Of a stretch of DNA of 46,072 nucleotides, positions 7,295 through 44,682 are shown one piece after another. The notes beneath the pieces were generated by a model. It was not told the origin of the DNA. It saw only the letters and a list, made by a program, of their open reading frames with translations, and ran no database searches. Made by a program: the position numbers and the translations under genes. The DNA is taken from the sequence record DQ121662.1. One strand, given 5' to 3'. Each line of letters begins with the position of its first letter. The first letter of the stretch is position 1. Source of the stretch: Escherichia phage Jk06.

Positions 7295-10200
7295 TTAACT
7301 ATAACCTCGCAAGAACTGGTAAGCCGTTCCGCCCTGCTGGAAGGACTGAGTAATCTCTTCCGCGATGATAACCCTGATACCAGATTCTAACTGTTTAGCG
7401 TCATTACCGCCACCACCGCCAAGACCTGTCTGAACGGTAACATTCACTCCACCAACATTAACGTTACTTCCACCAACAAGCCCGCCAGTCGCATAGCCAG
7501 GACCAGCACCAACCACTCCACCATTTGCGTATCCGCGCATTAACTTATAAAGGTTATCAACGCCAATCCTTGAGGTTGCCTCCTTCGTAAAGACGAATTC
7601 ACCTTTATGCACCGTGCCAGCTGGCTCGTACTTACCACCGTTTCCAGTATAACCGCCAGAAGCGAAACCAAATGCGCTACCAATAGAGCCAATTGCACCA
7701 CCACTACCGCCAAAACTGGAGATGGTTGATTCAATCGCCTTAATTAAAAGTAGCTGCGTTGCAATGCGTGCAATCTGCTTCAGAATCGATGCGGTAAACT
7801 CACGGAAGCTAGCTTCTCCAGTAGTTACCAGGTTTGTTATCTGGTCAGTCAATCCGTTAAAGGCACTCATGGCTAGCTCGGAACCAATCTGATTAAAGTT
7901 TGCCAATTCATCAGCCGTCTCAGCAAACGCAGATTTAACGCCAGCCAGCCAGTTACCACGTAATGCATCTTCCTGATTGTAGAAATTCTGACGAGCCTGA
8001 AGTAAAGCCTGGAAGTCAGTGTCATCTACGGAGCCACCTTTAGAAATTTGCTGGGCTTCTAGCGCCGCCAACTCACGCCGCCTTTCCGCTTCGCGCTGAG
8101 ATAATCCTGCTCCAACACTAATTGATGCCGCTTCAGCGTTAATCTGCCGAGTCTTCTTGATGTTGTCATCAAGAAGTTTATTGGCCCTTTCTTGCAGCAC
8201 AATCTGGTCGCCAATCTCAGCCTTCTCGCGAGCGAGTCCTAAGATTTTATCCTGCTGCAACAGTAATGATCGCTGTTGCTTTGTGATGGTTCCGTCTGCA
8301 AGCCTTTCATTAAGGATTGCAAACTTAGCTTCCTCCGCAAAAAGCTGCTTGCGTTCGTTACTGATAACATCACTAATCTGGCGGTGTTCCTGAAGAACCT
8401 TAAGCTGAGCCTGCAGAGCTAGAACGCCAGACTCATAACTTATAGTCAAATCCCTCTCTTCTTTTGCTCCAGATTTTGTCTTTTTACTTCTCTCCTCAAT
8501 TGCTTTAATCTCATCGGCCAAAGCCTTTCTTCTTGATTCTGAATCTCTATCAGAAGTTCCAGTTTGACTTTCTGAACCCTCTCCAACACTCAAGTAACCA
8601 GTCTCGCCCCTGCGAACCCTTGCATACCTATCAGCGATAGATTTAGCTAGCCTTATGTTTTCCTTTTCTATTGCGTCATTATCCTTCCTTAGTTGTTCGG
8701 CTATTCCATTACCAACGCCAGATGCTCCTGGTATCTTTTGTAAAGCCTCTATCCCGCGTATTACGAAATCATTTATTAGCTTGTCGCCAGTGCCAATTAT
8801 CAGTCTTATTTGCTCAATAGTCGCAGCTATAACGTCAGTAAATAGGTTTAGAGCTCCTATAGTCCTGTCACCTATAGCATCCCATGTGTCTGAAACGAAC
8901 TTACGGAAATCGCCCCAAGCCAATTCAAGAGGTGTAAGCGAGCCTTCAATCTGCTTTGTAACTGACTCATTTCTAGCTGCAAATATTTCTAAAGCTGCTG
9001 TTACTGCTGCTGTTTGCCCTTCCGTTTCTTTTAGGTTGTTAACTAGGGTCAGCTGCCCTTCGCTAAGAAAGTTAAATTGCTTATCTAACTCTATCAGCCC
9101 CTTAACTGGATCTTTTGCTATCTTATCAAAGTCAGATATTATTGATTTCCGCAGACCTTGAACTAACAGCTGAAAGGTTAGCAACAGACTTAGCTATTAA
9201 GTTAATCTGACTAACAGTAAGCCTTCCGTTTGATACTAGCGACTGGTAAATGTCACCAATAGAACCTTTTGTTGCCCTTGATGTTTCATTTAGCTGATCA
9301 GCGTAATCCTTGATAGCGGCAACTGATAAAGTCGACGACCTTCCAGTTTCAATTATTGCGTTATTAAGTTGCCTAACCTCAATAAATGAGTCGTAAGCGG
9401 CTTTACCAAGAACAGCTAATGAAGCAATTATCGCGCCACCAAATATAGTTGCAGCACGACCAAACCTTAAGATAGCCTCATCACCAAGAGTCCTAACATC
9501 AGCAAATGAACTTCTCAGCTCTCCTATTGATGATACATAATCTATAACTGCACCTTGCGCAGCTGATAATGTATTTGAAAATCCACCAAATGAATCTGTA
9601 ATCTGCGGTATTTGCTGGGTAAGCACCATAAATAAAGGCATACCGTTAGCAATCGAGCTAGTGATATCATTGATCTGTACAGGAAGGAACCTTAAGGCCT
9701 GATTGTACTGACCTGCCGATATCCCAGCCGCCTGAAACGCCCTACTTTGATTGGCTATAGCGTTAGTATTGTTACTTGATGCCTGTGTTATATCTATCTA
9801 TTATTGGTGCTGCCTGATCGCTAACTCCAAGCTGTGCCGCCCTTAACTTTAAGAACTCATCCCTACTTAATGTCGCTGCATCAGCCTGTGCTTGAAGCGA
9901 CCTAATAAATGATTGTGCTTGCCTCTCAGCGGACTCTTTATTTTTTGCAGCTTCTATAGCCGCCCTACCCTCCTCAGTTAATGCTGACCTAGACCTTATT
10001 AACCTATTTGTTTGCGTTTCTAATGCTTCACCAAGCCTGTAAAACTCAGCCTCTGGAACAACCCCTGCGGAGAAGGCTCTATCAAGAGAACTTGCTGCAT
10101 CTTGAAGTTTTCGCAATTTCGAAGCTGTTGGATCAATTGCCGACTGAAGCGACTGAAAAGCACTTCTCTGCTCAGAAAGATACCTTGCAGTGTCGCGAGC

Positions 10201-10352
10201 CTGATTCTTCGCAACCAGCTCAGCGTTTAACGAACTCGCTAACTCCAGCTGCCGCCTGTTCATTGGCACGTTTAAATTCTTGCAGGGACTTTATGCCCTG
10301 GATCAACCTGGCGAACGTCAACGCCAAGAGTGATACCTGCAAATTCTGCCAT
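7295..10352 (-). CDS. tail tape measure protein, reading frame interrupted at about 9.13-9.19 kb, 9.64-9.78 kb and 10.27 kb
   Basis: Track ORFs 9772-10269, 9132-9641 and 7295-9184 are contiguous, coiled-coil rich with a Gly-rich C-terminal part; ATG at 10352 preceded by GGAGG. Confidence 0.75.
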
Positions 10353-10361
10353 GTAACCTCC

Positions 10362-10388
10362 ATAAAAAAACCTCCACAAAGGGAGGTT
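10362..10388 (-). terminator. hairpin plus U7 run immediately upstream of tape measure RBS
   Basis: AACCTCCCTTTGTGGAGGTT stem-loop followed by TTTTTTT on the minus strand. Confidence 0.5.
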
Positions 10389-10641
10389 ATTTTTGCCTTA
10401 CTTGCATCATCTCAAGTGCTTTGCACTCCAGTATTCGCAAGTCATTTAAAGTCATCTCTTTGTCCTTGACATTATACACATCAAAGAGGAAAGGGAGTAC
10501 TGAATAATCTATTCCGGTAGCGCCGTTCATACCTACACGCCATTGAGTTGAAGCTGCCTGATAAACAGTCCATGCCAGCATCATGTCATCATCGAAGTGT
10601 AACTCCTCTGGCTCCTCATCTTCGTAATCGGAACGCCGCAT
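10387..10641 (-). CDS. tail assembly chaperone, distal ORF (possible frameshift extension of the upstream chaperone)
   Basis: 84 aa acidic ORF whose frame is open across the stop of ORF 10704-11018 (-1 frame); location between major tail and tape measure genes. Confidence 0.45.
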   Translation of the reverse strand: MRRSDYEDEEPEELHFDDDMMLAWTVYQAASTQWRVGMNGATGIDYSVLPFLFDVYNVKDKEMTLNDLRILECKALEMMQVRQK

Positions 10642-10703
10642 TCCAATGGCTTCAAGTTCGGCGTCCGTTGGCTCTCTTTGATACTGTAGATATACTGCGC
10701 GCT

Positions 10704-12144: not shown

Positions 12145-12573
12145 TCATAGTGCACGTTTAGCCTCCTGTACCGCCTCAGCAAAGTAACGGCCAAGCCTCT
12201 TTTGGACAACTCCAAGAACACCAGAAGGTGCCTGATTGGATGAACCAAACTCAAGACCTTGCGCATAATCAAGGCGGTTGCTAATGTAAATTACGTTCGT
12301 ATTGGCATCTCTGGCTAGTGCGTAAATTTGCCTACGAAGAGAGTTACGAGTCTCATTGCCATCAGGGTCGTAATTATTCAGCGACTGCGCGGCAGGTGAG
12401 TTGCCAGTGGCCTGCCAGTTACCCCTGAATCGACCCGTATCAACCGGAGATAGCTTAACGATGTCTTTGGTAGCCTTGGTTAGCGTGCCTTCCACAATCA
12501 ATTCTACTCCCTCTGTCACGCCATCAATCCATGCGTTAATTGAGTTCCTGAAACTAACAACGTCATTAGCCAT
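12145..12573 (-). CDS. head-tail joining (neck) protein
   Basis: 142 aa ORF in the neck module; position-based call. Confidence 0.4.
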   Translation of the reverse strand: MANDVVSFRNSINAWIDGVTEGVELIVEGTLTKATKDIVKLSPVDTGRFRGNWQATGNSPAAQSLNNYDPDGNETRNSLRRQIYALARDANTNVIYISNRLDYAQGLEFGSSNQAPSGVLGVVQKRLGRYFAEAVQEAKRAL

Positions 12574-12627
12574 ATGTTGCAGCCCTCCGCAGTACTGGCC
12601 TGTAGGCGATTACCGTTCCGGTCGGCT

Positions 12628-12942
12628 TCACTGGTCTAGGGTCAATGACTGTGTAGCTTCCTGGTCAATGTAGATGCGGTCGCCTTCCGATACAACTGAA
12701 TCAGCAGTAAAAATTCCGCGACGGTCACCGAACTTGATGATGTCACCGTCAATGTCTCTTGCTTTGAATTCACGAATAACACCCCGCACAGTGTAGGAAG
12801 TGCCTGGTGTGCGCACTTCATAGCCATTAACGATAGAGATGGCTGGCTGTGTCGTAGCTTCGAAAACTCCATCACCATCTGACAGGAGATTAATACCAGC
12901 CTTAATTTGCTGCTGCAAAAGTGCATGATTCATCGGCAGCAC
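12628..12942 (-). CDS. head-tail adaptor / head closure protein
   Basis: 104 aa ORF in the neck module; position-based call. Confidence 0.4.
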   Translation of the reverse strand: MLPMNHALLQQQIKAGINLLSDGDGVFEATTQPAISIVNGYEVRTPGTSYTVRGVIREFKARDIDGDIIKFGDRRGIFTADSVVSEGDRIYIDQEATQSLTLDQ

Positions 12943-13307
12943 CTCGACCCACCAGAGGTAATCAAGCCCCAGCGGCCAACCTTGAGACGCATCAAATCAA
13001 TGTAAAGCTTACCCCATGAGGATTCCTCAAGGTTTGATGAGCTAGCTGCGGCAGTGCTTGTATCGTAGCTAATCGTGTACTCGCCTGAAAGTGAGTAGGA
13101 CTTAACCCGCTCAGATGATGTCTGGCTTGAATCATTCTCAGTCTTAAGTGCAATATCCTGGCTAAGCAAGTGAAGAGTGTAGAATGCCAGTGCCTGAACC
13201 TGCTTGTCACCAAACTTGTCTAAGCAGATGAATAGCTTGGCTACCTCAATCCATGCGTTAAGAACATCATCAGGCTGACTCTTAAGAGGCGGGTAAAGCG
13301 TGCGCAT
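12930..13307 (-). CDS. head-tail connector protein
   Basis: 125 aa ORF in the neck module; position-based call. Confidence 0.4.
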   Translation of the reverse strand: MRTLYPPLKSQPDDVLNAWIEVAKLFICLDKFGDKQVQALAFYTLHLLSQDIALKTENDSSQTSSERVKSYSLSGEYTISYDTSTAAASSSNLEESSWGKLYIDLMRLKVGRWGLITSGGSRCCR

Positions 13308-13374
13308 GTACGCAATTACTTCTCATTCATGTGATATCTCCATACAATAAAGGACGCCGAAGCGCCCTTTTGGT

Positions 13375-13712: not shown

Positions 13713-14659
13713 TTACGCGAAGGTGATGCCTTTCATTACAGCCATTGTCAAAGGACGATACACGATCAAGCCAGTTGCCTTAGAGGTTACTGGAATTTTG
13801 AAATGTAAATCCTTAGGCTGAGCTGGCAGCGCGTTAGTCGCTTCCGGAATCTCGATGGCCATGTTGTTAGGGTCTTTCTCATAAGCAATAGCAGCAGAGG
13901 TGCCAGTGCCATTGTAATCATTCAGGTACTGAACGAACTCAACAGTTACTCCGCTGTTGTTCTGGCGGAAGAACTCACCGTAGCTAACAGAGGTACCAGG
14001 AACCAGGTTCTGCATGATACGACGAGCGGTAGTAGGCAGAAGCAGGTGAGTTGCACGGTGCTGACCATTAGTTGAAGTCTCAATGATATCCAGCAGGCTT
14101 GTAATATCGCTTACTGCTGTAGTTGGTTGAGACCATGAGCCACCGCTAACAACGTTGTTGATATTTGGATAGTCGAACACACTCGGGATACCGTGAGCAG
14201 TAGAGCCTGACCATACCAGTTTATCAAGCAGCTTATCGTGAGCTTCGAAAGCAAGAGATTGCTTGCGAGTAGATAGTGACTGACCGGTAGCTTGACCAAC
14301 TTTAATTTCATCGATGGAAATCAAGAAAGCATTACCAAAACGGAAAACTTTACCCTGACGTTCAGTTGCTAAAGCGTCAACAAGTGGCAGGTCATCAGTG
14401 TAGTCAGCTACGATCTGAGCAATACCAACGCCATCAAATACCGGATACTCGAAGTACTTAGCATAGCCGGGAATTTCATTGCTTACAGGGAACAGGTTTA
14501 CTACGGAGTTCTGGTCGTACTCAGTTTCGTAAGCTTTATTCAGGCTTGCAGTTAGCTGCTTCACGGTCCAGATACCAGCCGCATCAGCCTTATCAACGCC
14601 CATAGCTCGCAGGTGGTTAGTAATCTTTTCTTGCTCGAAGCGTCAAGTTTGATAGTCAT
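13713..14659 (-). CDS. major capsid protein, frame change near 14600-14660
   Basis: 296 aa track ORF has capsid-like composition; ATG at 14659 with AAGGA RBS lies in a different frame 19 codons upstream of the track start. Confidence 0.8.
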
Positions 14660-15587: not shown

Positions 15588-15638
15588 CTTTATCTCCTGA
15601 TTGGTTAATAATCATTGACAGTCTAACAGTAAAGAGCA

Positions 15639-15679: not shown

Positions 15680-16147
15680 TTATTTTTGGATAACCTGAAC
15701 CTCAACCAGTGCTGGCTCTCCAGATGCGGCATCAGCTGCCTGGAATCCACCTGCGAATGTCCAGTTAGTAGTTAAGGTGCCGCCGCTTGTTGCTAATCCA
15801 TTGGCATCAACGGTAACGGCGCTACCAAATGCAGGAGCTGCTGAAAGGCTAGTTGCCATCCAGATTCGACCGTGAGTCATTACGTTAGACACGGAGAAGT
15901 TGTCAACATCACCAGCAGAACCGCCATAAGTTCCCTTAGGAGACTCGTAATGCGACCTTACCAGGACGCCGTAAACATTACCAGATGCCGGAGCTACCAG
16001 CACCTTGTGACCATCAACAACAGAATCAACTCAACAGCAGTGCCAACATTGCGCACGAGAGCCCGAAGATGTTACACAGGCACCATCAATATTGTACAGA
16101 GAGGTATCTGCAACCATACCAGCAGTAGCTTGACGACGAATTGCCAT
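15680..16147 (-). CDS. hypothetical head-module protein (possible decoration protein), frame interrupted near 16000-16030
   Basis: ATG at 16147 with AAGGAG RBS opens a 38-codon frame that stops near 16030; track ORF 15680-16003 continues in another frame. Confidence 0.4.
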
Positions 16148-17268: not shown

Positions 17269-18022
17269 TAATTAAATTCTCCCATTTAGGAACAGCCCAG
17301 CAACGACACCCGTATTGCTGACCGGGGAATATCGCAAGGCCGTCAAGTTTTCCAGCGTCCGAACCATCTGATTTAAAGCTAACCCCCTCACGCAAAACGT
17401 GAGATGGTCGCTCTTTGTCGTCAAGTCTACCACGCCAAACATACTGAGATACACCGGCATCTTCAAGCCTTCTCCGCATAAGGTTTGAGTTTAGAGACCC
17501 TGTAATTCCAGCAGCGATATTTGCTGTTCTCTTTCTGTAGATTCGGTATCTATCATCAAGGTCAACAGTGTTACCAGCCTGCGCAGTAATGGCGTTGTTT
17601 ATGAAATCATCCTTGATGTTGTTTAGCAGCTTTGATGCACTTAACTGCGTGCCAACAATCCAGGAGTTCCTGGTGTCGAGCCACCATGGTTCATCCGCGT
17701 TAATACCATACAATCCTAGCGCAAGAACTACAGGATTATTCTTACCTCCGGAGTTGTTGGCCACCTTAAGGAATTGCGCCGAGTTATAACGATATATTGC
17801 TAGCGCCAGCGCAGGCAGAGTGGAAACAAAACCAGATAGCAGCGCTGAGATTGCATCTGAAAGGTCTGAATCTTCATCTTCAATCTCCTGCGCTGTGTCA
17901 ATTTTTAGCCTCTTTGCAGATAACTTCATTTGCTCAATAAGTTCAGATACCGCAACCAAAAGGCTGCGGTTAATCTGGCTCTCAATTATTTGCGGATACA
18001 TCCAGCGGGTCTTCTGATTCAT
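17258..18022 (-). CDS. minor head / head morphogenesis protein (Mu F-like, SPP1 gp7-like)
   Basis: 254 aa ORF ending with a GCRCWAVP-type Cys motif; directly downstream of the portal gene. Confidence 0.7.
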   Translation of the reverse strand: MNQKTRWMYPQIIESQINRSLLVAVSELIEQMKLSAKRLKIDTAQEIEDEDSDLSDAISALLSGFVSTLPALALAIYRYNSAQFLKVANNSGGKNNPVVLALGLYGINADEPWWLDTRNSWIVGTQLSASKLLNNIKDDFINNAITAQAGNTVDLDDRYRIYRKRTANIAAGITGSLNSNLMRRRLEDAGVSQYVWRGRLDDKERPSHVLREGVSFKSDGSDAGKLDGLAIFPGQQYGCRCWAVPKWENLINEE

Positions 18023-19255
18023 TAATTACAACCTCCGTTTGAATTGAGCCTTCACCAATCTTAACCTCAGTTGAAATTGCGCGCAACGTATCTCTTGCTT
18101 CGTCTGCGTCAATGATTCCAGCTGCAATCAATGCAGCAACTGAGTTAACATTCTTCTCAAGAATCTCAGATTTATCCTTGTCACTAACCTGCGATAGAGG
18201 GTTAAATTCTACTGACCACTCTTGCTCGGTTACGATGAACGGCAGCAGGAACTCAAGCAGAGGCAATAATTCAGCCTTTCGCTTACGGTCAACATAACCG
18301 TAGAAAGTCTCTAGAGCAGTGTTCTGGCTTGCTGACACACCACCAACATTCTTACCCTTAAGGATAATCTCATGAATACCGCTCAGAGCAACGATTCGAT
18401 CGAACTTCTGACTCAGAAATGTATCAATACCGCCAATATCTGAGTTGAGAACGTTGTACTCTTCACTATCCGCGTCAATCCCGATAGCCTGACCAACGCC
18501 ACTGTTATTATCCACTTGAGCCAGACGTAAACGAGCTGCTCCATCTGAATCATCACATAAGTCAGCAAGGCCTTTTGCTTTCCACACTCGCCTGCTGTTT
18601 ACGACGAAGTAACTGAGTAGCTCAGTCGCTCACAGTTCTGATAGTCGTCAATCGCGTCAATTAAGTCACTCAGTTATTACTGCTTGCGCTCCCAGCCATC
18701 GTTATTACGACGTAGGTTGTTAGGTACTCGCTCGCCATCAATGATGTGACAGCGTGTATAGTGCACATCGTAGAACGTTGCCGACCCGTTTGGCGTGATG
18801 CGGTAAGTTAATGGCTTACCAAAACGCGCGTTACGTGGATTCTCCTCGCGAGTCTGGACCTTAATTTGCTGCCGGTCGTATACACGAACCGTTTCAAGCT
18901 CCGCACCTTCACGAACCGGGCTGGTTAGCGCCCTTCCATCCTTCACAATTGCCACTACAGCAGCGCCACCGTATAGTCTCGCCCAGGCTAGTGCGTCGAT
19001 TACGTTATCTGAAAGGCCTAAATCATCCCATCGCGACCAGAATGCACCCTCATCATCAATGCCTTCAATGTTAAAGCCTGCGCCAAGCGCGACCTCTGGC
19101 ACGATATCAATAATTCGACGAACCAACGCACTACTGACGTAAAGCTGCTCAAGCTGTGCTGGAGCTGTCAGGCCAAGGCCGCCAAACTTTCCGTAAATCT
19201 CGCTACCATCAATCCCGTTAAGAAAGATGTTTGCGTAGCTATCTGCTTTTACCAT
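17982..19255 (-). CDS. portal protein, frame interrupted near 18590-18680
   Basis: Track ORFs 18677-19282 and 17982-18587 are contiguous; likely start MVKADSY at 19255 with RBS GGAG. Confidence 0.75.
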
Positions 19256-19270
19256 GTAATTTCTCCAATA

Positions 19271-19297
19271 AAAAAGCCCCATGTAGGGGCTAGTTTA
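19271..19297 (-). terminator. intrinsic terminator after moron gene, overlapping portal RBS
   Basis: AGCCCCTACATGGGGCT hairpin followed by TTTTTT on the minus strand. Confidence 0.55.
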
Positions 19298-19716: not shown

Positions 19717-19760
19717 ATTATAAGCCATCCATGGCGATTATCTTTACCAATTCGTGCTAT
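19717..19760 (-). promoter_or_regulatory. promoter module variant (IR-like ATAGCACGAATTGGTAA, 22 nt, TATAAT)
   Basis: Reverse complement of 19744-19760 matches the repeated IR motif with one change; perfect TATAAT at 19717-19722 on the minus strand. Confidence 0.5.
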
Positions 19761-31923: not shown

Positions 31924-32000
31924 TCTATTTCCTATCTCGTTGTCGATGAAACAAATATAGCGCCTTTCGGCGCTATAGTCTTTAGCAAAAAGTGCTATTT
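31924..32000 (-). promoter_or_regulatory. early promoter module (IR, hairpin, TATATT, CATCGACAACGAG leader)
   Basis: IR TTTAGCAAAAAGTGCTATTT at 31981-32000 (reverse orientation); hairpin AGCGCCTTTCGGCGCT. Confidence 0.5.
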
Positions 32001-32548
32001 ACTACTTCCATTAATTTATTCAAAGAACCATCTATATCACCACTATCTAGTTTCAAATCAACCTCAATCGCACCAGTATTGTAAAGGTATGACCTGGAAT
32101 CACCTGAGAAATCAAAGCCATCCCTATGAAGCCTTACAATCATAACATCAACGCCATTAGATAATAGTGGCTCAATTTCTGAACGCAAAACCACCGTCAG
32201 AAGAAACATAGAATCCATCAACAATCTTGCTGTACAGCCTCTTTCCGAACACGTCATTCCCAAACACTGGCTTCATTACAACTTCGCTAATCCATATCAT
32301 AACTCTCTCGGGGTTTTTCCACCAAGAAATGACTGATGGGACTCCTTGAATGACCTGTCGTCATAATTTTCAATAAATTTATCAAAATCATCTTTTGATA
32401 AAACACCTCTTGCAACATCAAATATTGGTGATTTGAATGATAATTTTTCATCAAAAAAACCAGATGTAACAAGAATATCAGCTAGCGTGTCCTTGCCGCA
32501 ACCCGCTGGACCATTAAGTACGACTAATTTCTTCATTTTATTCCCCAT
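31982..32548 (-). CDS. P-loop nucleotide kinase (dNMP kinase-like), frame interrupted near 32263-32300
   Basis: Walker A LNGPAGCGKDT in ORF 32297-32548; ORF 31982-32263 continues downstream in another frame. Confidence 0.5.
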
Positions 32549-33011: not shown

Positions 33012-33013
33012 TC

Positions 33014-34140
33014 TTACATCCCCGGGCGGTAAATGAATCGACCAATCTCACCAAATTCCTTGTGGTATACGATTACCGCCGCCTGACGATAGCTTCTCCA
33101 TCCACCTCGAGCTGCATAAGCATCTTTACTCGCAAGCGCCGGGTGAACCTCGTCAATACCAAGCGTGCACTCACTTAACGTTGCATGATGGAAGTGCCCC
33201 GAATGACAGTAAACAAACTCACATTCGCCAAAATCTTTACGGAAATCTGTAGCCATTGCTGCCAGTCGACCTTCTGCTTTCTTCATTGTGTGACCATGCG
33301 TGTATCCAAGCAGTGTGGAGCCATAACGAGTCTTGTGCATAATTGCAGGGCTAACATCAACATGAACACGTGGCTCATTATCATAGAATGCAGCCATTGC
33401 AGCACGCAGCCAAATCATCGATGCCTGGTCGTGGTTGCCTTCAATAACCTGAATCTCAACCTCTTTATGTTTCATAAGCATTTTAGTTACTGTTGCTCGC
33501 AGTGATCGAATGGCAACATACACCAACTTAGCAAATCGACTATCCTGATCAAGTACGTGCTTACTGCCGGTGTAACAGCATCAAGACCATCAGAGTGAAG
33601 GAAGTCGCCACCAATCAGTAGCACTGCTTTCTCGGAATTTGGAGCCTTGCTGATTGAGTAATCAAAGTATGAGTTCATCAATTTTTCAGCTGTTGCCGTG
33701 TCGTAGTTCTCGCCAGCTTCGTGAGAGTGGGCCATCATACCAATATGAATGTCAAATACAGGGTAAAGAGTTAATGTATCATCAAAGTTAACATTTTCAT
33801 TTTTAACTAGCTCGGCCTTAGGAAGTTCTGAGCAAAATGCTTCGCGTGCCTTAGTAATAATCTCTTCAAGGCGTTCATTATCAACGCTAGTCTTAACCCA
33901 ACGAATCTTCTCGTTACCTTCTGCATCAATCATGGTTGAAGTGCCTTTAACCATGTATCCATCCGGAACTAGCTTCTTTATGCCTTCGTTTCCGTGGCCT
34001 TCGCCAGATTTTGACAGCTTGCTCCGGCGCAGTTCTACGTTACGAATGTTCATGCCGTACTTCTCTGCGATTGCTTTGTTAGTCATACCGTTTGCCAGTT
34101 CTTCTTTAAGTTGTTCTTTAGTGATTTTAGCGATAGCCAT
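33014..34140 (-). CDS. metallophosphoesterase (calcineurin-like) with N-terminal HTH-like segment, frame interrupted near 33490-33530; true start at ATG 34140
   Basis: Motifs FDIHIG, GDFLHSDG, GNHD and GHTH across track ORFs 33487-34263 and 33014-33526; the first 41 codons of the track ORF lie in the promoter. Confidence 0.6.
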
Positions 34141-34224
34141 TCTATATTTTCCTATTAGCAGGTTATGAAGTACATGATTATAAAGGTTACTGGCACTGCC
34201 AGCAATGGTAGTAATGTTTTCATC

Positions 34225-34298
34225 TGAGCCGCCTCTCGTTTCGATGAACACACTATAAGCCATCCCTGGCGATATGTTTTAACAAAAAGTGCTATTTA
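34225..34298 (-). promoter_or_regulatory. early promoter module (IR variant TTAACA, TATAGT, CATCGAAACGAGAGG leader)
   Basis: IR at 34277-34298 on the plus strand (reverse orientation); a 20-codon hydrophobic mini-ORF lies in the leader. Confidence 0.5.
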
Positions 34299-35800: not shown

Positions 35801-35863
35801 TTCGTTTCGATGAAGTAACTATATCGCATCCTTGCGAAATCTCTTTAGCAATTCGTGCTATTT
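35801..35863 (-). promoter_or_regulatory. early promoter module (IR, TATAGT, CATCGAAACGAA leader)
   Basis: IR at 35844-35863, TATAGT on the minus strand at 35818-35823, leader at 35801-35812. Confidence 0.55.
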
Positions 35864-36230
35864 GATAGATAATCTGTAATTGCCAACTTAAACATTTCAA
35901 ACCCATAACAGATTGCCGCGTAACCTCCTGTTTCTGATACCTTTTCCAGAAACTCCTTTTGCTCCTTTGAAACCTTGCTATCTGATTTTATTGCTCGCTT
36001 AAGCTCTATTGCGGCAAAGCCATTTGGTCCAATCAGTAGAATATCTGATACACCCTTAATTACTCCCTCCTGCTTGTCCTTCATTGCTGTGCCGATAGAC
36101 TTGAGACCTTCATTCTTCACGTGAAAAGCAAATATCTCTGGATGGTTGTGGCGAACCCAAGCTATTGAATTTATTTGGTGAACAACCTCTTTAGCCTGTC
36201 AGTGCTTGTTTTGTCGTGAAAAACCTTAAC
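35845..36230 (-). CDS. VRR-NUC-type PD-(D/E)xK nuclease, N-terminal frame interruption near 36120-36170
   Basis: Core GVSDILLIGPNGFAAIELK...EQKEFL...GGYAAICYGFE; open frame extends upstream of the track start, with ATG 36230 in another frame. Confidence 0.5.
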
Positions 36231-36232
36231 CA

Positions 36233-38178
36233 TTAGAACTCCTTATTAGCAATATTATCGCCACCTTTAGCGGTCTTGCGGTGAGTTACCCTCTTAGGAG
36301 CATGGATGTACTGCGAATACTCCATAATCTTGCGAGCATTGCGATATGCAGCCATATATCGCTTAGCGTTCATGTCGACTACGTGACCTTTAATTCCATT
36401 GTTCAACCAGAGTGTTTTACATACTCGATGGTCAGACTCTACGAAGAAAACCTCATGAGCTTTAAATGTCCCACCCATGCCATCATCAAGGATGTAGTTG
36501 TAGATGATTCCTGATTGGTTCTTTGTTAGCCCAACCTTAAAGTCAACAACATCAAACCAGTCGTTCTTGCGGTAATGTTTGCCGCTTAACTTGAGATTTG
36601 GATCAAGCAAAGTGCAATCGCAACCCCTACAAATCTTAGCTGCAACGTCATTCTGAACTCCGCAGCCTTTAACGATAACCTTTCCGGTTCGTGGGTCTTT
36701 CTGGTCTTCACATGTGCGACTAACCCAGAAATATTCGCAGCGATTATTATTCTCATCAATATGCATGCAACGTCGAGCAAAGAAGCTGTTCTCTGTTCCG
36801 CATACTGGACACTGCTTAGTCTCCTTGCCATTATCTTTCGTAGCTGATATTGAGCCTGCTCAAGAATTGGATTGAAGTACAATGATGCCATAGAGTCCAT
36901 CGTTCCTGCGAAGTCCAGTACCAAATGGTCATTCTTGACCATTCCTTTATCTTCATGGAGCTTCTTAAGCTTACGCATTCCTCGACCAAGTAGCTGAACC
37001 AGGAGCGTAAGGCTACCAATCTTACGCAGAATAACGCTTGTATCCCATGTAGGCACATTTACGCCAGTGGTTAGCGCCTGAACCTGAAAGCAATATTTAA
37101 TCTCCCCGCTAAAGCACTTATCAAGCAACTCCTTGCGCTGCTTCTCGCCAGTCTTTCCAGTTATAATGCAGAACTTTTCACCTTCAGGAAGGTAACTTGC
37201 GGCTTCGTGGCAATGGCGCTCACCTGCGCATGTTACCAGAACTCCATTCCTGTCTTTCGCGGCAAGCCATACTTTCTTCATTATCTCCGCTGTCATTGTT
37301 CCAGATGCCTGAATCTTTTTATCCATGGCTTCAAGCTGGGCTTTAGTGTAATCCTGAACACCATCTTCAGATGATGCATCAAACTCTGACAGGTCGTAAC
37401 CAACGCCATCAGTAGCACCAAAGTTTGTCGGAACCACGGAACCGAACTCGACCAGGTAGTTTGTATCGATATTTGTGACCGTCTCACGCCAAAATCCCAA
37501 CTCCTTTTTATTTTCAACAACTATTGGCGTAGTTCCACGGAAAGGAGAACCAGTCAGTCCAAAGATACGAAGATTCTTGCCATACTTAGCACGGCAGCGC
37601 TCCATTAAAGTCAGTATGATTACCGTATACTGGCTACGTCCCTTATCTGATGCCTGTTGCGCAGTCTCATTGTTATCTAGAGCCTCAGCCACATCCTGGT
37701 CATCAACATGGTGACACTCATCAATAGCAACTACCGCAGGGCAGAAATCGCCAAGTGACCTCTCAAGCCCGCCAACTACTGTACCCTCAGAGCCAACCAC
37801 CACAGGGAAATAAGATGATTTTATTCCAAGCCCAGAGCAATAGATGGAGTTAGGAACCCCGTAATCAGAAATCTCAGAAGCATTCTGGCTAACCAGCTCT
37901 GCCTGACGAGCAAGAACAAGCATAGGCAAGCCAAGCTCAGAGCAACGCTTAGCAACCATACCAAAAACCAGAGTCTTACCAGCAGAAACTGAAGCCATTG
38001 CGATAAATGGATGCTCATAGCGACTAATGCGCTTTGCAATCTCATTGTACATAACACACTGATAGCTATACGGAACCATACCGTTAGAAGAGGTGAATTT
38101 AGTTTGAATCTCTTTAATCTTATCTTCGCCCAATTCTTCAATCTGTTTTTGTATTGTTTTCAATCGGTTTTCCATAAT
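36233..38178 (-). CDS. SF2 DNA helicase with C-terminal zinc-ribbon region, frame interrupted near 36800-36840; start taken at MENRLKTIQ
   Basis: Motif I SVSAGKT, motif II DECHH; Cys-rich C-terminal continuation CPVCGTEN...CRGCDC in ORF 36233-36766; the first 16 track codons overlap a promoter module. Confidence 0.75.
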
Positions 38179-38189
38179 ATCAAATGCCT

Positions 38190-38256
38190 TTAATGTTTGT
38201 TCGATTGACGATATAATAACAGCCATCTAAACCAATGTTTAACAAAAAGTGCTATT
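38190..38256 (-). promoter_or_regulatory. early promoter module upstream of helicase
   Basis: IR TTTAACAAAAAGTGCTATT at 38238-38256 (reverse orientation), then TATATC and CAATCGAACAAAC leader before the internal ATG at 38178. Confidence 0.45.
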
Positions 38257-39795: not shown

Positions 39796-42012
39796 ATGGC
39801 AATTTATGACGCTGGAACTGCATCGCTTGCAGCTGACGGAACTGTAACTGGTGTTGGCACCACGTGGAGGCAACCACTAACACTAATCCGAGTTGGCGCA
39901 ACAATGATTTTTAACACCACCCCGACAAGCATTGTTACTATCGCTGAGATTTTAAGCGATACAGAGATTCGTGTATTCAATGATAAAGGTTTTACTGCGC
40001 CAGCTGGGACTCAGTACTCAATCCTTGCTCATGACGGAATTACTGTCCAAGGTCTTGCTCAGGACGTTGCTGAGACACTTCGTTATTATCAGTCCCGTGA
40101 AACAGAGGTTGCAGCGGCAGTTGATGCTTTTAATCAATTTGATTCTGATTCTTTCCAGCAAAGCGTAAATAATGTCAACATGCAATCTCAGCAAGTTGCT
40201 GTTGATGCTGCTCAAGTTTCTTCTGACAAAGATCAGGTATCTTATGATAGGCAGTTAGCTGAAAGTAGCGCTAACTCGGCTTACTCTTCAGCTACAATAG
40301 CAAGCTCTGCTGCGGCTTCTGTGTCATCTGCTCTTGTAGTTGATTTCTCAAATGGTGGAGAAATAAACTCAAGAACTCAGCCTGCAATTTACTTTAATGA
40401 CAATCATGTTTCGGTTTATTACTGGTCTGGTAGCGTTCCAAAATCCATACCACAAAACTCATCACCACAGTCTACAGGTGGTATTGGAGTTGGTTTTTGG
40501 ATTCAACAGGATTACACAAGAAGGTTTGAATCAGTATCAGCAATGACAAACTCTGCCAGAATTTATGACTTAGAGGTTGTCTATTGTGATTCTTACATTG
40601 GTGGTCTTGGTTATGGTGGTGGGTTCTTTGTTTGTAAGCCGGAGTCATCGTTATCATATGGATTATCTTCAGGATTGGTTTTTGAATCAAGTACCGGTTA
40701 TTACTGGGAAAGAATCTGTAGCGGGGAGCTGTCGCCTTGCGAACTTGGAGCTATTAAGTCATCGACATCAGACTCAACGACACAGATACAGCAAATCCTA
40801 GACTCTGGGCTGGCATTAAAGCTTGATAGCGACTACATGGCATCAAACCTGGTAATGAGAAATAAATCTTGCTCTATAATTGGTTTTGGCAAGCACAAAT
40901 CAAGAATAACTCAGCTTAGTTCATCAATTGGCTCTTTAATTGAGGTATCTGATTCTTGCTCGCTCATTCATATTGAAGGCATTGCTCTTTACGGCACTGG
41001 AGCCCAGCAAGACACGGCGTTTACTGATGGTACTGCTGGGATTTACATCCCTACGCCGACTGGGTTATCAACCAATTACCCATTCAACACTGGTGCTGAC
41101 CCTAGGAGGGACTTAACGATAAGAAACACTCACATTGCTGGGTTTGATGTTTACGGAATTTTCGTTGCTGCTGGTAACTACTCTCCTGTTCTTGATGATG
41201 TTCTTATTCAGCACATAAAAAAAGACGGATTGATTAACGAAACAACAGACTTCACATGGAATAACATACAGGTAAACACCTGTGGAAGAAATTGTCTAAT
41301 ACTTAGGAATGCCGGAAACTGTAGGATTGTTGGCGGTAAGTTTATTTGGTCGGGTTGGTCGGCTTATAATGAGCTTGATGATGCTTATGGCATCCTGATT
41401 GATAACTGCCAAAACATCACCATGTCAGCTATAGAGGCGCAGGATTGCGGTGGTGACGGTGTTAGAATTGTAAACTCTAGAAATGTGGTATTTAATGGAT
41501 TAAATAGTAACAGGAACAGCATAAACTCAAACTACAGAGATTATAACGTTTCGTTTTCAAATAGCTCTGTAAGAATCTATGGTTTTGTTGGGCTTAACTA
41601 TGTATCTAACAATGGCGATGGAAGGCCAACTTCCGCTGGCAACTTCAGATTCCTTGACTCAAGATCTGATGTTGTGATCGATGGGGTTGTTGAATCTGGT
41701 TACTTTGGCCCAAATTTCTCAGGGGACACTAACTATGTTGCTGAGTATTCAGGAAACCTGAAGATAAACGGACTGATAGACAAAAGGAAGACAAGAATTA
41801 AGCCAGCAAACGACACTTCAGCTTTTGATGGGGTCTCTAATACACCAGTATTCGCCGCAGCGGCATCATCAGTTGGGCAGCAATATTGGCTAAGGCTTTC
41901 ACAGGCAAATAAAGATAAGATTATATGCACTGGATTTGACCCGTCACTAGGTTTCACCGCTACATGCAATATATCGCCGACCATAACTGTTGTGAAGACT
42001 TTAACCTTATAG
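39796..42012 (+). CDS. tail fibre / tailspike protein with probable right-handed beta-helix domain
   Basis: 738 aa uninterrupted ORF; fibre-like N-terminus MAIYDAGTASLAADGTVTGVGTTW; Asn/Gly/Ser-rich repeats with periodic hydrophobics in the C-terminal two thirds. Confidence 0.65.
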   Translation: MAIYDAGTASLAADGTVTGVGTTWRQPLTLIRVGATMIFNTTPTSIVTIAEILSDTEIRVFNDKGFTAPAGTQYSILAHDGITVQGLAQDVAETLRYYQSRETEVAAAVDAFNQFDSDSFQQSVNNVNMQSQQVAVDAAQVSSDKDQVSYDRQLAESSANSAYSSATIASSAAASVSSALVVDFSNGGEINSRTQPAIYFNDNHVSVYYWSGSVPKSIPQNSSPQSTGGIGVGFWIQQDYTRRFESVSAMTNSARIYDLEVVYCDSYIGGLGYGGGFFVCKPESSLSYGLSSGLVFESSTGYYWERICSGELSPCELGAIKSSTSDSTTQIQQILDSGLALKLDSDYMASNLVMRNKSCSIIGFGKHKSRITQLSSSIGSLIEVSDSCSLIHIEGIALYGTGAQQDTAFTDGTAGIYIPTPTGLSTNYPFNTGADPRRDLTIRNTHIAGFDVYGIFVAAGNYSPVLDDVLIQHIKKDGLINETTDFTWNNIQVNTCGRNCLILRNAGNCRIVGGKFIWSGWSAYNELDDAYGILIDNCQNITMSAIEAQDCGGDGVRIVNSRNVVFNGLNSNRNSINSNYRDYNVSFSNSSVRIYGFVGLNYVSNNGDGRPTSAGNFRFLDSRSDVVIDGVVESGYFGPNFSGDTNYVAEYSGNLKINGLIDKRKTRIKPANDTSAFDGVSNTPVFAAAASSVGQQYWLRLSQANKDKIICTGFDPSLGFTATCNISPTITVVKTLTL

Positions 42013-42025
42013 CTAAGGGACTGGT

Positions 42026-42508
42026 TTGGAGTTAATAGTAATGCTCTTACTGCAGTATAACGTGATGGCATCAGGAGAACACAGTGTCTCATTGTTAATA
42101 TCAGCATCAGGTGAAACAAGAGTTTTATCAGGTGTGTTGCCAGTCTCATCAAGAATGGTCAACGGTGGTACTTACAATATTGCTCTTGGTTTTGATGTAT
42201 CTGGTAAGGTTTGGTGGAGCATCTTAAACCTGAATACTGGATTTAGAGTTAGAAGGTCATTTGATTCTCAGTATATAGATATTGATGTCAGACCTATACT
42301 AACAACAGCTGGTAACTATGTAACCATGTATTCAGGTCAAGGCGCTGGTGATGTAGCTTGCTCTGGATATGGCTTTGGTGTTTACGTTGGCAGCTATTCA
42401 GATGAGTCTGATTATTGCGCTTCAAGATACTATTCGCTTAAAGGTGGTGTTGATTTGACAAAACAATCAGTATTTTTGAGTTTGAATGGTGATGTAACGT
42501 CACAATAA
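42026..42508 (+). CDS. hypothetical protein downstream of tail fibre gene (possible fibre-associated protein)
   Basis: 160 aa ORF, Gly/Ser/Tyr-rich; ends at a bidirectional terminator. Confidence 0.4.
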   Translation: MELIVMLLLQYNVMASGEHSVSLLISASGETRVLSGVLPVSSRMVNGGTYNIALGFDVSGKVWWSILNLNTGFRVRRSFDSQYIDIDVRPILTTAGNYVTMYSGQGAGDVACSGYGFGVYVGSYSDESDYCASRYYSLKGGVDLTKQSVFLSLNGDVTSQ

Positions 42509-42962: not shown

Positions 42963-43009
42963 TTTATATTCTCTTCTCGTTTGATTTTGGGGCCGAAGCC
43001 CCGTTTAGT

Positions 43010-43658
43010 TTAGAACTGCTCGATTGATTGTGATTCTACTACTTCATTAGTTGCGTTTGCAACTTTTTTAGCGACTTCCTTTGGCTTAGCTGGGTTGAAG
43101 CCACTTGCGGAAGCCATTTTGATCTCTGCTTGTTTATCTATTATCGCTTTCTCTACTATACCCCACGTTGCCGTGTCAGCTTGTGATTTGCATGATTTGT
43201 AGATTTCGATAAGCTCTTCTCGAGTTTCTGCCTTCTCAATATCGCGCTTCCAGTCCTTGACGCTCTTAACTGACCATCTGCGCATCATCGTCAGACTGAC
43301 TAATTCCCAAAGCCGCCGCTAGTGAGTAACGCCGAGCGTATGTAAATGCAGATCCTACTCCTTGCGGGTCTTTCTTAACGATTGGCATAATCATGAAGAA
43401 GCTAACCCACTCGCCAGAAACGTGATAGAGAGTCGTCTCTACGTTAAGATTGTCAGCAGTTGATGTTTCTAACATGCTCTGCATAATCATTAAGTCGTTA
43501 TCATCAAGTGCTGGGATTACAGCCTCCAGCATGGAATCAAGTGTTGCGTATCTATTCTTTAGGTGACTGTTCTGCTTGTCTCTTGCTGCCTTCGCAAATC
43601 CTGTGCGAGCTTTAAATAGTGCCTGTAAAACTGTTTTGTTACTCTCTGAAGTCTTCAT
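43010..43658 (-). CDS. putative single-strand annealing protein (ERF-like), two overlapping ORFs, possibly one interrupted gene
   Basis: ORF 43266-43658 has a [14 protein letters not shown]-type motif; ORF 43010-43288 overlaps by 23 nt; promoter module upstream. Confidence 0.4.
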
Positions 43659-43670
43659 TTCTATCTCTCT

Positions 43671-43733
43671 TTGTTGTCGATGAGGTAACTATACCCCATC
43701 GATTTAATACCGTTTTAGCTATTCGTGCTATCT
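43671..43733 (-). promoter_or_regulatory. early promoter module (IR, TATAGT, CATCGACAACAAAG leader)
   Basis: IR at 43714-43733, TATAGT on the minus strand at 43688-43693, leader at 43671-43682. Confidence 0.55.
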
Positions 43734-43845
43734 TCGTACTTCTTCATCTCATACTCAGGAACTTGCAGTTCCATCTCTGTTTCGCCAAATCCGTAACCAG
43801 GCCAAATATCAAGTTTCTTGCATTGCTTGTATGTGGATAGGGCGC

Positions 43846-44682
43846 TCATGTATTGCAATCTACCAACCTTAAGTGCTCTTTTGTTATCGTGTAGCACATT
43901 GGAAGGAATGGGCTTTTCTTTTCCTGGCAAAGAAGCTGAACAACAACTCGACGCTTCTCATTAAAGGCGCGAACAAACAAATCATGCTGAAGCGCCATTT
44001 TTAGCAAATAACCATGCTTGAAGGCCAATCTCCCAAATCCAGATGGAGATGCGTCGCTAGTCGTCTTGTAGTCACGGATATAAACTACATCATCAACGAC
44101 ATCGACATGGTCAAGACGAACCTTAACGCCGCACTCGTTAATCTCACCGAAGATTGATAACTCTCGCTGAGCGGTTTTACTGTTCACTATCGCATTGTAT
44201 GCAGGAATGCCACACAGCACCTCTCGCATCGCATGTACTGTGTCAAAGTCTTTAGCTGATACAATCTCGCGACCGTTCGCTTTAACCTCGATAGAGCGCT
44301 GAATATCCCACCATACGTTAAGTGATTCACCGGCTCAGCGCCAGAATCTCCATTAATTCTGGATAATCCTTACCAGATGTTCCAGCAATACCCATCGACT
44401 TCAACCGAGTTGCCAAAGCAGTCTGCTAGTAATCAGATCCTCAAACTCTTCTTGCGCTGGCTGGCGATAGTAAGTCGCATCGAATACAGAGTTTTCAAGA
44501 ATAACCGTGTGGGCTAATGTACCGAACTTTAACGCCTTATTGCTATCATCATGCTCTGCAAACTTATAAGCAGCGGGGCAAGTTGAGAAGATGTGAGCCA
44601 GACCAGAGCCAGACACATGGTCTGACTCCTTGTGGTAGGCTTCGTTGGTTAACTCGTCGCTAGTGTAAACCTTGAAGCTCAT
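43846..44682 (-). CDS. PD-(D/E)xK family exonuclease, reading frame interrupted at least twice
   Basis: Fragments 44401-44682, 43846-44229 and 43715-43930; motif VRLDHVDVVDDVVYIRDYKTT; adjacent to the annealing protein and SSB genes. Confidence 0.5.

What the first reader, a model, noticed from the sequence alone, without database searches (positions are those of the whole stretch)
7295..44682. Many essential genes appear split by frame changes
Adjacent ORF fragments in different frames with short overlaps or gaps occur in the tape measure gene (3 breaks), large terminase (2), portal, major capsid, small terminase, helicase, VRR-NUC nuclease, metallophosphoesterase, dNMP kinase, the P-loop paralogue, the exonuclease and others, roughly one break every 2-3 kb. 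The pattern fits uncorrected indel errors in a long-read assembly better than biology; a defective genome is the alternative. Either way, automated annotation will fragment these genes, so I report them here as single interrupted CDSs.
Basis: seen in the sequence. Interest (0 to 1): 0.55.

Follow-up and report, generated by a model that had tools for sequence, protein, structure and literature searches.

The report
Sequencing errors fragment phage JK06 genes
The broken genes are real features of this sequence record, which is coliphage JK06 (deposited by 2007), but they come from about 43 single-base sequencing errors rather than biology, and the problem was already noted in print in 2012.

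Summary
The window is the complete 46,072-bp genome of Escherichia phage JK06 (NC_007291). Compared with seven close relatives and one independent Logan contig, all of which have intact genes, it carries 43 private single-base insertions or deletions. These fall at 27 sites, break 20 genes and span positions 132–45063.

Reverting 41 of them restores 19 of 20 genes to full length with no internal stop. The 20th gene is explained by a further −T/+G pair.

The evidence favours error over decay:
- Substitutions on the window's own branch downstream of the breaks are still 73% synonymous, against 22% expected by chance.
- The events do not avoid coding sequence.
- The window is a closed phage genome with no host flanks.
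- Packaging and virion genes (both terminase subunits, portal, major capsid, tape measure) would all be broken at once in an isolated phage.

None of the 100 homopolymer runs of 5 or more bases is affected, and 11 of 19 insertions sit next to no identical base. The record was in RefSeq by 2007, before long-read platforms existed. The events cluster tightly, and site spacing is enriched at about 600–700 nt. Both suggest poor stretches of Sanger-type reads.

Kropinski et al. 2012 already reported numerous errors and frameshifts in JK06. This is an artefact of low interest.

The parts
24..345 (+). Lipoprotein gene (homologue of C119_22 / Rogue1 gp40), split by an extra T at 132
   Evidence: tblastn gives two HSPs in frames +3 and +1. 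The +T at 132 is private against all relatives. After repair the match is full length, 106 aa.
336..1307 (+). Membrane protein JK_1, with a compensated pair: -G at 823 and +G at 858 (about 12 codons out of frame)
   Evidence: Identity to Rogue1 gp39 rises from 95% to 98.8% after repair. The protein is an exact match to JK_1P.
6101..6101 (.). Extra C in the 9-nt spacer between two minor tail genes (non-coding event)
7295..10352 (-). Tape measure gene in five frame segments, from four insertions: +T 9146-9148, +A 9792, +T 10226-10228, +A 10302
   Evidence: tblastn with Rogue1 gp32 gives 5 HSPs in frames -3/-1/-2/-3/-1. After repair there is a single 1017-aa match at 99.3% with no stops. At the 9792 site, viral contigs show only the allele without the extra base.
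12566..12933 (-). gp26 homologue, split by a 1-nt deletion at 12656
12930..13330 (-). gp25 homologue (virion structural protein), with a 1-nt deletion at 13323 in codon 3 that separates the start codon from the body of the gene
13713..14659 (-). Major capsid gene, with a 1-nt deletion at 14638 that puts the first 7 codons out of frame
   Evidence: tblastn matches q8-315 only. After repair q1-315 matches at 99%.
15634..15634 (.). 1-nt deletion in an intergenic stretch (non-coding event)
15680..16147 (-). gp20 homologue, with a compensated pair (-C at 16033, +C at 16064); the 10 codons between contain a stop
   Evidence: Identity rises from 92% with 1 stop to 99.4% with 0 stops after repair.
17982..19282 (-). 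Portal gene, with five extra T (each directly after a C) at 18588, 18622, 18670, 18681 and 18690, plus a 6-nt in-frame deletion at 18540
   Evidence: (column-by-column alignment). After repair there is a 424-aa match with no stops. In the 90% protein cluster the listed members are 422-425 aa, except the JK06 fragment (201 aa) and e4/1c (388 aa, annotated as truncated). Viral contigs show only the allele without the extra T.
19757..21323 (-). Large terminase gene in three frame segments, from 1-nt deletions at 20333 and 20966
   Evidence: After repair q1-514 matches at 98.2% with no stops.
21320..21836 (-). Small terminase gene, split by an extra G at 21594/21595
   Evidence: After repair the match is 171 aa at 100%.
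28217..29808 (+). DUF3987-type helicase gene, with a -T/+G pair at 29214/29217 (creates an in-frame TGA), +T at 29235-29237 and +A at 29320-29323
31735..31921 (-). gp59 homologue, split by an extra T at 31779; an extra C at 31925 lies just upstream of its start (non-coding)
31982..32548 (-). dNMP-kinase-like P-loop gene, with a compensated pair: one base missing at 32301-32303 and one extra at 32182-32184, leaving 40 codons out of frame with three stops
   Evidence: Three-frame translation against the ACG-M12 and ES homologues. Confirmed at nucleotide level against an independent Logan contig, L022, that encodes an intact 184-aa protein.
33014..34263 (-). Metallophosphoesterase (DNA repair exonuclease) gene, split by a 1-nt deletion at 33565
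   Evidence: Seen against e4/1c and independently against L022. After repair the match is 416 aa with no stops.
35845..36233 (-). VRR-NUC nuclease gene, split by a 1-nt deletion at 36198
   Evidence: After repair the match is 129 aa at 100%.
36233..38226 (-). SNF2-type ATP-dependent helicase gene, split by a 1-nt deletion at 36834
   Evidence: After repair the match is 647 aa at 98.8%.
39796..42508 (+). Second tail fibre gene, with five 1-nt deletions (C, T, T, T, T) within 59 nt at 41993, 42016, 42025, 42047 and 42051
   Evidence: After repair the match is 905 aa at 99.4% with no stops.
43010..43658 (-). Erf-type single-strand annealing protein gene, split by an extra A at 43273
   Evidence: After repair the match is 215 aa at 100%. 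The one viral contig with this site has the allele without the extra base.
43715..44682 (-). Exonuclease VIII (RecE-like) gene, with a 1-nt deletion at 43865-43869 and a compensated pair (+G at 44332, -T at 44424)
   Evidence: Identity rises from 88% with 3 stops to 99.7% with 0 stops after repair.
44954..45582 (-).
   Evidence: After repair the match is 209 aa at 100%.

Best explanation
The window is the deposited genome of the virulent coliphage JK06 (NC_007291). The frame breaks are base-calling or assembly errors in that record: 43 spurious single-base insertions (22) and deletions (21) at 27 sites. They are not features of the phage's DNA.

The most likely source is stretches of low-quality, low-coverage first-generation (Sanger-type) reads that were never finished on both strands. 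That would explain three features of the errors:
- They come in tight bursts, such as five extra T after C within 103 nt, and five missing bases within 59 nt.
- They often come in nearby plus/minus pairs that conserve length.
- The sites tend to lie about one read length (roughly 600-700 nt) apart.

What is shown: the identity of the record, the privacy of the events, their non-homopolymer context, their clustering, and that reverting them restores the genes. What is inferred: the exact laboratory cause (Sanger read ends or single-read coverage).
For: **Identity**
- Window ORFs are exact matches to JK_1P, JK_11P, JK_34P and JK_61P of Escherichia phage Jk06, from a 46,072-bp contig.
- The window length and 44.0% G+C match the JK06 entry in PMC4070988.
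- The window begins with ACGCGTATATCAAATAGCAC, the string quoted for JK06 in PMC3496638.

**The events are private to the window**
- All aligned relatives (up to 7 independent genomes) agree against the window at each event.
- An eighth independent source, Logan contig L022, confirms three of them.
- The window has 35 private non-3n indels, against 1-3 in five relatives.
- In IMG/VR, only the relatives' allele is found at the three sites scanned.

**Repair**
- Reverting 41 events turns 19 of 20 broken genes into single full-length matches at 92-100% identity to close relatives (61% for the P-loop gene, scored against the distant ACG-M12), with zero internal stops.
- The remaining stop is a -T/+G scramble 20 nt from another event.
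- No clean nonsense substitution exists anywhere.

**No decay signal**
- Of 22 substitutions private to the window that lie downstream of the first break in a broken gene, 16 are synonymous and 17 fall at codon position 3 of the repaired frame. Chance gives 22% synonymous; P = 6e-7.
- Events hit coding sequence in proportion to its length: 38 of 41 events against 88% of the sequence, P = 0.47.

**Error-like pattern**
- 13 neighbour pairs lie 100 nt or less apart, against 2.6 expected; none of 5000 simulations reached this.
- T accounts for 17 of 36 events, against a 29% base frequency (P = 0.016).
- There are five compensated pairs 3-119 nt apart.
- Eight of 26 inter-site gaps fall in 596-709 nt, with interval-corrected P = 0.009.

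**Literature**
- Kropinski et al. 2012 state that JK06 contains 'numerous errors', that 19 of its genes should be deleted, some because of frameshifts, and that five should be reclassified as pseudogenes.
Against: - No raw reads or resequencing of JK06 are available here, so no single event is directly proven to be an error.
- Some events could be genuine variants. The candidates are the four non-coding ones (6101, 15634, 31925 and a possible one at 19280), the two at gene starts (13323, 14638) and the compensated pairs.
- The Sanger attribution is inferential. The 600-700 nt spacing is only moderately significant.
- The enrichment of private substitutions near the events is modest: 15 observed within 25 nt against 5.6 expected.
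- I found no paper describing how JK06 was sequenced.
Confidence: 0.94

Rival explanations
1. One reading: uncorrected indel errors of a long-read (or other homopolymer-sensitive) assembly, concentrated in homopolymer runs.
For: The events are all single-base indels. A few sit in short runs of 2-4 bases, for example 9146, 29320 and 42025.
Against: - None of the 100 runs of 5 or more bases is affected.
- Eleven of 19 insertions have no identical neighbour.
- Deletion run lengths follow the genome background.
- NC_007291 was already cited in September 2007, before long-read sequencing existed (my own knowledge of platform dates).
- Bursts of five events within 60-100 nt in otherwise clean sequence do not fit homopolymer-driven error.
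Confidence: 0.02
2. The frame breaks are real: a decayed or defective phage genome, such as a dying lineage, a cryptic prophage, or a defective particle population.
For: Without raw reads, the sequence alone cannot exclude it. One relative, e4/1c, has a portal gene its depositors annotated as truncated by a frameshift.
Against: - Packaging and virion genes (both terminase subunits, portal, major capsid, tape measure) would all be broken at once in a phage that was isolated and propagated (that these genes are essential is established phage biology).
- Selection is not relaxed on the window's own branch downstream of the breaks.
- Coding sequence is not avoided.
- There are no nonsense substitutions, against 43 indels.
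- The two ends of the window are adjacent in the relatives, so there is no host DNA.
- The one break-site pattern scanned was found in none of 185,579 bacterial and archaeal species genomes.
- Five identical C-to-CT insertions within 103 nt are not a plausible mutational spectrum.
Confidence: 0.03
3. An artefact of another kind: mutations selected or introduced while shotgun or restriction fragments were cloned in E. coli, then read from single clones.
For: This would also give private, non-homopolymer changes and would fit a 2005-2007 workflow. Several affected genes are nucleases or DNA-metabolism genes that can be toxic when cloned (36198, 33565, 43869, 44332).
Against: - It does not explain bursts of five same-type events within 60-100 nt, nearby plus/minus pairs, or the T bias.
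- Structural genes with no expected toxicity (tape measure, tail fibre) are hit as often as any.
- The events fall in proportion to sequence length.
Confidence: 0.08
4. Programmed recoding: the genes are expressed through ribosomal frameshifting or transcriptional slippage at these sites.
For: None specific. The only place where a programmed -1 shift is plausible is the tail assembly chaperone pair (10387-11018), which is not one of the breaks.
Against: At every site, seven relatives that are 90-99% identical have a continuous reading frame. Several sites need multiple shifts within 100 nt. Most breaks lie at scattered, non-repetitive sequences; I did not run a dedicated scan for slippery motifs.
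Confidence: 0.005

Closest known systems
Published assessment of the JK06 record (Kropinski et al. 2012, Virol J 9:207, PMC3496638)
   Same: [quoted passage not shown]
   Different: In the passages I read, the paper gives no site-by-site list, no error spectrum and no test of error against decay.
Homopolymer frameshift errors of pyrosequencing and nanopore assemblies (for example the two '454 sequencing induced frameshifts' corrected in Rogue1)
   Same: Single-base indels that split genes and are removed by targeted resequencing.
   Different: Here the events avoid long homopolymers, occur in bursts and in plus/minus pairs, and number 43 rather than 1-3 per genome.
Isolated frame-disrupting indels in other deposited Rogunavirus genomes
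   Same: These are private, gene-splitting indels in single records. Examples are the e4/1c portal (23-nt deletion, annotated as truncated), the UDF157lw tail fibre (split by -T at L004:31892) and the phiJLA23 endolysin (-2 nt at L002:29175).
   Different: Each record has one to three, so a real variant and an error cannot be told apart. In JK06, the number, the clustering and the simultaneous loss of the packaging and virion genes settle the question.
Bacterial and prophage pseudogene decay
   Same: Genes are interrupted by frameshifts.
   Different: Decay also produces nonsense substitutions, larger deletions and relaxed selection. None of these is seen here.

Membership tests
Escherichia phage JK06 (NC_007291), genus Rogunavirus, Drexlerviridae | Exact identity of encoded proteins, genome length and start of the sequence | tested here: met
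   Four window ORFs are exact matches to JK_1P, JK_11P, JK_34P and JK_61P, from a 46,072-bp contig. The length of 46,072 bp and 44.0% G+C match. The first 20 bases are as quoted for JK06. Nucleotide identity to Rogue1 and phiJLA23 is about 96%.
Sequencing or assembly indel artefact | Events are private to one record and contradicted by all independent close relatives | tested here: met
   All aligned relatives agree against the window at each event. Logan contig L022 confirms three. IMG/VR contigs show only the relatives' allele at three sites.
Sequencing or assembly indel artefact | Reverting the events restores full-length, stop-free genes | tested here: met
   19 of 20 genes are restored by 41 reversions. 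The 20th is restored by a further -T/+G pair.
Sequencing or assembly indel artefact | No evolutionary footprint of gene loss: selection is maintained and coding sequence is not avoided | tested here: met
   16 synonymous to 6 non-synonymous private substitutions downstream of breaks, P = 6e-7. 38 of 41 events are in coding sequence, against 88% of the length.
Sequencing or assembly indel artefact | Events disappear on resequencing, or coincide with low-quality bases in the raw reads | not testable with these tools
   No reads, traces or phage stock are available.
Homopolymer-type (long-read, 454 or Ion Torrent) indel error | Events are concentrated in homopolymer runs, more so the longer the run | tested here: not met
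   None of the 100 runs of 5 or more bases is hit. Eleven of 19 insertions are next to no identical base.
Homopolymer-type (long-read, 454 or Ion Torrent) indel error | The record was produced after such platforms existed | tested here: not met
   NC_007291 is listed in a paper dated 17 September 2007, and PMC4070988 places JK06 at 2005. Long-read platforms came later (my own knowledge). 454 existed from late 2005 and is not excluded by date alone.
Decayed or defective (pro)phage genome | Relaxed selection, nonsense mutations and larger deletions alongside frameshifts; host flanks if it is a prophage | tested here: not met
   The window's ends are contiguous in the relatives. The one break-site pattern scanned was not found in the bacterial genome collection.
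Programmed ribosomal frameshifting | The frame change is conserved in relatives at the same site | tested here: not met
   Relatives have continuous frames at all sites. I did not scan the break sites for slippery motifs.

The most novel reading that the evidence does not exclude
The frame breaks are really present in JK06 DNA, and the phage still makes full-length terminase, portal, capsid and tape measure proteins through unusually pervasive recoding or slippage. A weaker version is that a handful of the events, such as the compensated pairs in the membrane protein, exonuclease and kinase genes, are genuine natural compensated frameshifts. Sequence evidence alone cannot strictly exclude either version without reads from the original stock.
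Probability: 0.01. Interest if true: 0.85.

Novelty: not a real feature. Interest (0 to 1): 0.07.

Why it matters
The biological interest is low. The practical value is modest but real.

NC_007291 is a RefSeq genome, and a genus was once named after this phage ('Jk06likevirus'). Its fragment proteins sit in NCBI and UniRef under functional names. A 169-aa piece is called 'tail length tape measure protein', and a 201-aa portal piece is called 'virion structural protein'.

These fragments distort gene counts, core-gene comparisons and protein clustering. Kropinski et al. said they could not compare the proteomes for this reason.

The site list given here would allow the record to be corrected or flagged. 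The same test battery can separate error from decay in other suspect genomes. It combines privacy against relatives, repair, selection on the terminal branch, homopolymer context and clustering.

Tried and rejected
1. **IMG/VR search for close relatives carrying the polynucleotide kinase module**. It returned only matches at 29-35% identity, which were no use. The gap was filled through the protein search and a Logan contig.
3. **Population scans of JGI metagenomes and GTDB genomes** for the SNF2-helicase break site found nothing in either allele. They add no population evidence beyond showing no bacterial-genome copy of that site.
4. **IMG/VR allele scans** found only 1-3 contigs per site.
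5. **The stop at 29213-29215** at first looked like a true nonsense mutation. The column alignment shows a -T/+G scramble instead.
6. **Private indels in BECP10 (11) and e4/1c (9)** at first seemed to weaken the control. All of BECP10's lie in 18337-18679, a divergent segment where its gene is annotated intact. Those of e4/1c are mostly pairs, plus the annotated portal deletion.
7. **The split of the gp11 homologue at 22939** is not a window error. Rogue1 alone differs there.
8. **Enrichment of private substitutions near the events** is only 2.3-2.7 fold. I treat it as weak support.
9. **The 600-700 nt spacing** has a corrected P of 0.009. It is suggestive, not proof, of read-length periodicity.

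Full report
**What the window is**

Megablast against deposited phage genomes shows a Rogue1-like siphophage (Rogunavirus, Drexlerviridae). It is about 96% identical and collinear to Rogue1, phiJLA23, phiKP26, C119, AHP42 and others.

An exact-sequence look-up identifies it outright. Four window ORFs are letter-for-letter JK_1P, JK_11P, JK_34P and JK_61P of Escherichia phage Jk06, each recorded on a 46,072-bp contig. Three further details agree:
- The window is 46,072 bp with 44.0% G+C, as tabulated for JK06 (NC_007291) in PMC4070988.
- It begins with ACGCGTATATCAAATAGCAC, the string quoted for the start of JK06 in PMC3496638.
- Its last and first 300 bases align as one continuous stretch in Rogue1, C119 and other relatives.

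The window is therefore a complete, closed phage genome with no host DNA.

**Checking the observation**

I translated the annotated proteins of intact relatives: Rogue1, plus e4/1c, C119, AHP42 and ACG-M12 where needed. I then ran tblastn against the window. Twenty genes are split across frames or carry a local out-of-frame stretch:

| Group | Genes affected |
|---|---|
| Virion and packaging | tape measure, gp26 and gp25 homologues, major capsid, gp20 homologue, portal, large terminase, small terminase, second tail fibre |
| DNA metabolism | DUF3987-type helicase, dNMP-kinase-like P-loop gene, metallophosphoesterase, VRR-NUC nuclease, SNF2 helicase, Erf, exonuclease VIII |
| Other | lipoprotein, membrane protein JK_1, gp59 homologue, Rha anti-repressor |

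Nucleotide alignments to seven relatives place the cause at single-base indels. The tape measure gene has four events rather than three. The second tail fibre, Erf, lipoprotein, membrane protein, two small virion genes, gp59 and the anti-repressor were missed. The events run from 132 to 45063, beyond the stated span.

The total is 43 events, made up of 22 insertions and 21 deletions, at 27 sites.

**Is it more than background?**

I ran the same procedure with each genome in turn as query, counting indels on which all aligned others agree against the query.

| Genome | Private indels not a multiple of 3 |
|---|---|
| Window | 35 |
| Rogue1, phiJLA23, UDF157lw | 2 each |
| AHP42 | 3 |
| C119 | 1 |
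| BECP10 | 11 |
| e4/1c | 9 |

All of BECP10's lie within 18337-18679, a locally divergent segment whose gene is annotated intact. Those of e4/1c are mostly pairs, plus a 23-nt portal deletion that its depositors already annotate as a truncation. The ratio of private indels to private substitutions is 0.21 for the window and 0.01-0.07 for the rest.

**Error or biology?** Five tests bear on this.

1. *Repair.* Reverting 41 events gives a 46,071-bp sequence in which 19 of 20 genes become single, full-length, stop-free matches. Identity is 92-100% to close relatives, and 61% for the P-loop gene scored against the distant ACG-M12. The one remaining stop, in the DUF3987 helicase, is not a clean nonsense change. 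Relatives read GCGTTGAAGGC and the window reads GCGTGAAGGGC, a -T/+G pair 4 nt apart and 20 nt from the next event. So there are 43 indels and no nonsense substitution.

2. *Selection.* Of the 167 substitutions private to the window, 22 lie downstream of the first break in a broken gene. Sixteen of these are synonymous, and 17 fall at codon position 3 of the repaired frame. Random change would give 22% synonymous (P = 6e-7). In unbroken genes the split is 47 synonymous to 36 non-synonymous. The reading frames were therefore under purifying selection for essentially the whole of the window's own branch.

3. *Position.* 38 of 41 events lie in coding sequence, which makes up 88% of the genome (P = 0.47). 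Selection has not filtered them.

4. *Viability.* Both terminase subunits, portal, major capsid and tape measure would be broken at the same time in a phage that was isolated and propagated. That these functions are essential is established phage biology.

5. *Independent sequences.* A Logan assembly from run SRR23460813 (L022) is 90% identical over the kinase and phosphoesterase region. It differs from the window by exactly three gaps in 2,220 bases, at 32184, 32303 and 33565, and it encodes intact 184-aa and 375-aa proteins. In the 90% portal cluster, listed members are 422-425 aa except the JK06 fragment and e4/1c. IMG/VR contigs carry only the relatives' allele at the three sites scanned.

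**What kind of error?**

That check fails:
- None of the window's 100 runs of 5 or more bases is affected.
- Eleven of 19 insertions add a base with no identical neighbour.
- Deleted bases come from runs of 1-4, much like the genome background.

The events are instead strongly clustered, with 13 neighbour pairs 100 nt or less apart against 2.6 expected. Several details point the same way:
- The portal burst is five extra T, each directly after a C, within 103 nt.
- The tail-fibre burst is five missing bases (C, T, T, T, T) within 59 nt.
- T accounts for 17 of 36 events, against a 29% base frequency (P = 0.016).
- Five plus/minus pairs lie 3-119 nt apart: 823/858, 16033/16064, 29214/29217, 32182/32301 and 44332/44424.
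- Eight of 26 gaps between sites fall in 596-709 nt, with P = 0.009 after correcting for the choice of interval.

NC_007291 is already listed in a paper of September 2007, and PMC4070988 dates JK06 to 2005.

Taken together, these suggest unfinished first-generation reads: low-quality read ends or single-read coverage, with a channel-specific base-calling problem in at least two stretches. This last step is inference. I found no description of how JK06 was sequenced. Cloning-derived mutations remain a minor alternative.

**Comparison with what is known**

This is not new.

**Verdict**

The interpretation as artefact is supported with about 0.94 confidence. The 'long-read, homopolymer' attribution is not supported, and the 'decayed genome' alternative is contradicted.

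Biological interest is low. The value lies in curation, because the fragment proteins remain in RefSeq and UniRef under functional names.

Noticed in passing
window 10387-11018 (- strand), overlap 10704-10746: The two tape-measure chaperone ORFs (homologues of Rogue1 gp30 and gp31) are annotated as separate genes in the relatives. The downstream ORF's frame stays open upstream to 10746, overlapping the last 14 codons of the upstream ORF in a -1 relation. That is the arrangement expected for the conserved programmed -1 frameshift of siphophage tail assembly chaperones. I identified no clear slippery heptamer by eye.
   Followed up: partly
L001 (Rogue1) 2547-2924, event at 2659; window 22679-23052: Rogue1's 'putative fusion protein' gp11 exists only because of a T private to Rogue1 inside a TTT run. 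The window and six other relatives have two separate ORFs here. Since Rogue1 was sequenced by 454, the fusion may itself be a homopolymer error.
   Followed up: partly
L004 (UDF157lw) 31892; L002 (phiJLA23) 29175; L007 (e4/1c) 3910: Other deposited Rogunavirus genomes each carry one to three private frame-disrupting indels. The UDF157lw tail fibre is split in two by -T. The phiJLA23 endolysin is shortened by a 2-nt deletion. The e4/1c portal is truncated by a 23-nt deletion.
   Followed up: no
window 24675-25235 (- strand) versus 28217-29808 (+ strand): The intact 186-aa ORF (homologue of AHP42_64) resembles the DUF3987-type helicase at both ends. The first 48 aa are 67-69% identical and the last ~70 aa are 46-47% identical. 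It looks like a paralogue that has lost the whole central part.
   Followed up: no
window 19282-19757: An insert of about 475 nt lies between the large terminase and portal genes. It carries a 124-aa ORF (19313-19687) and aligns to none of the seven relatives. Rogue1 has only a 50-nt spacer here, and e4/1c carries HNH endonuclease ORFs at the same junction. Pfam gives only a weak DUF7244 hit.
   Followed up: no
window 31941-33016: A module holding a polynucleotide-kinase-type phosphatase gene and a dNMP-kinase-like gene is absent from the seven close Rogunavirus relatives. It is present at 70-72% nucleotide identity in Braunvirinae phages (ACG-M12, ES) and at 90% in an unnamed Logan contig. 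This is a mosaic exchange between subfamilies.
   Followed up: partly
window 18540: A 6-nt in-frame deletion in the portal gene (relatives have TCCAAA or GCCAAA before TCCATC) is private to the window and lies 48 nt from the burst of five extra T. I cannot tell whether it is a real variant or part of the same bad stretch.
   Followed up: no
window 14751-15587 (- strand): The collagen-like protein is 278 aa here and 481 aa in Rogue1 gp21. The internal stretch of about 170-200 aa is missing, as already described by Kropinski et al., who found GPVGP repeats at its borders. The JK06 record mislabels it 'hypothetical DNA polymerase I'.
   Followed up: no
window 1338-9146 and 21595-29214: Two stretches of about 7.6-7.8 kb carry almost no events (only 6101). 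The errors are concentrated elsewhere, which suggests uneven read quality or coverage across the original assembly.
   Followed up: no
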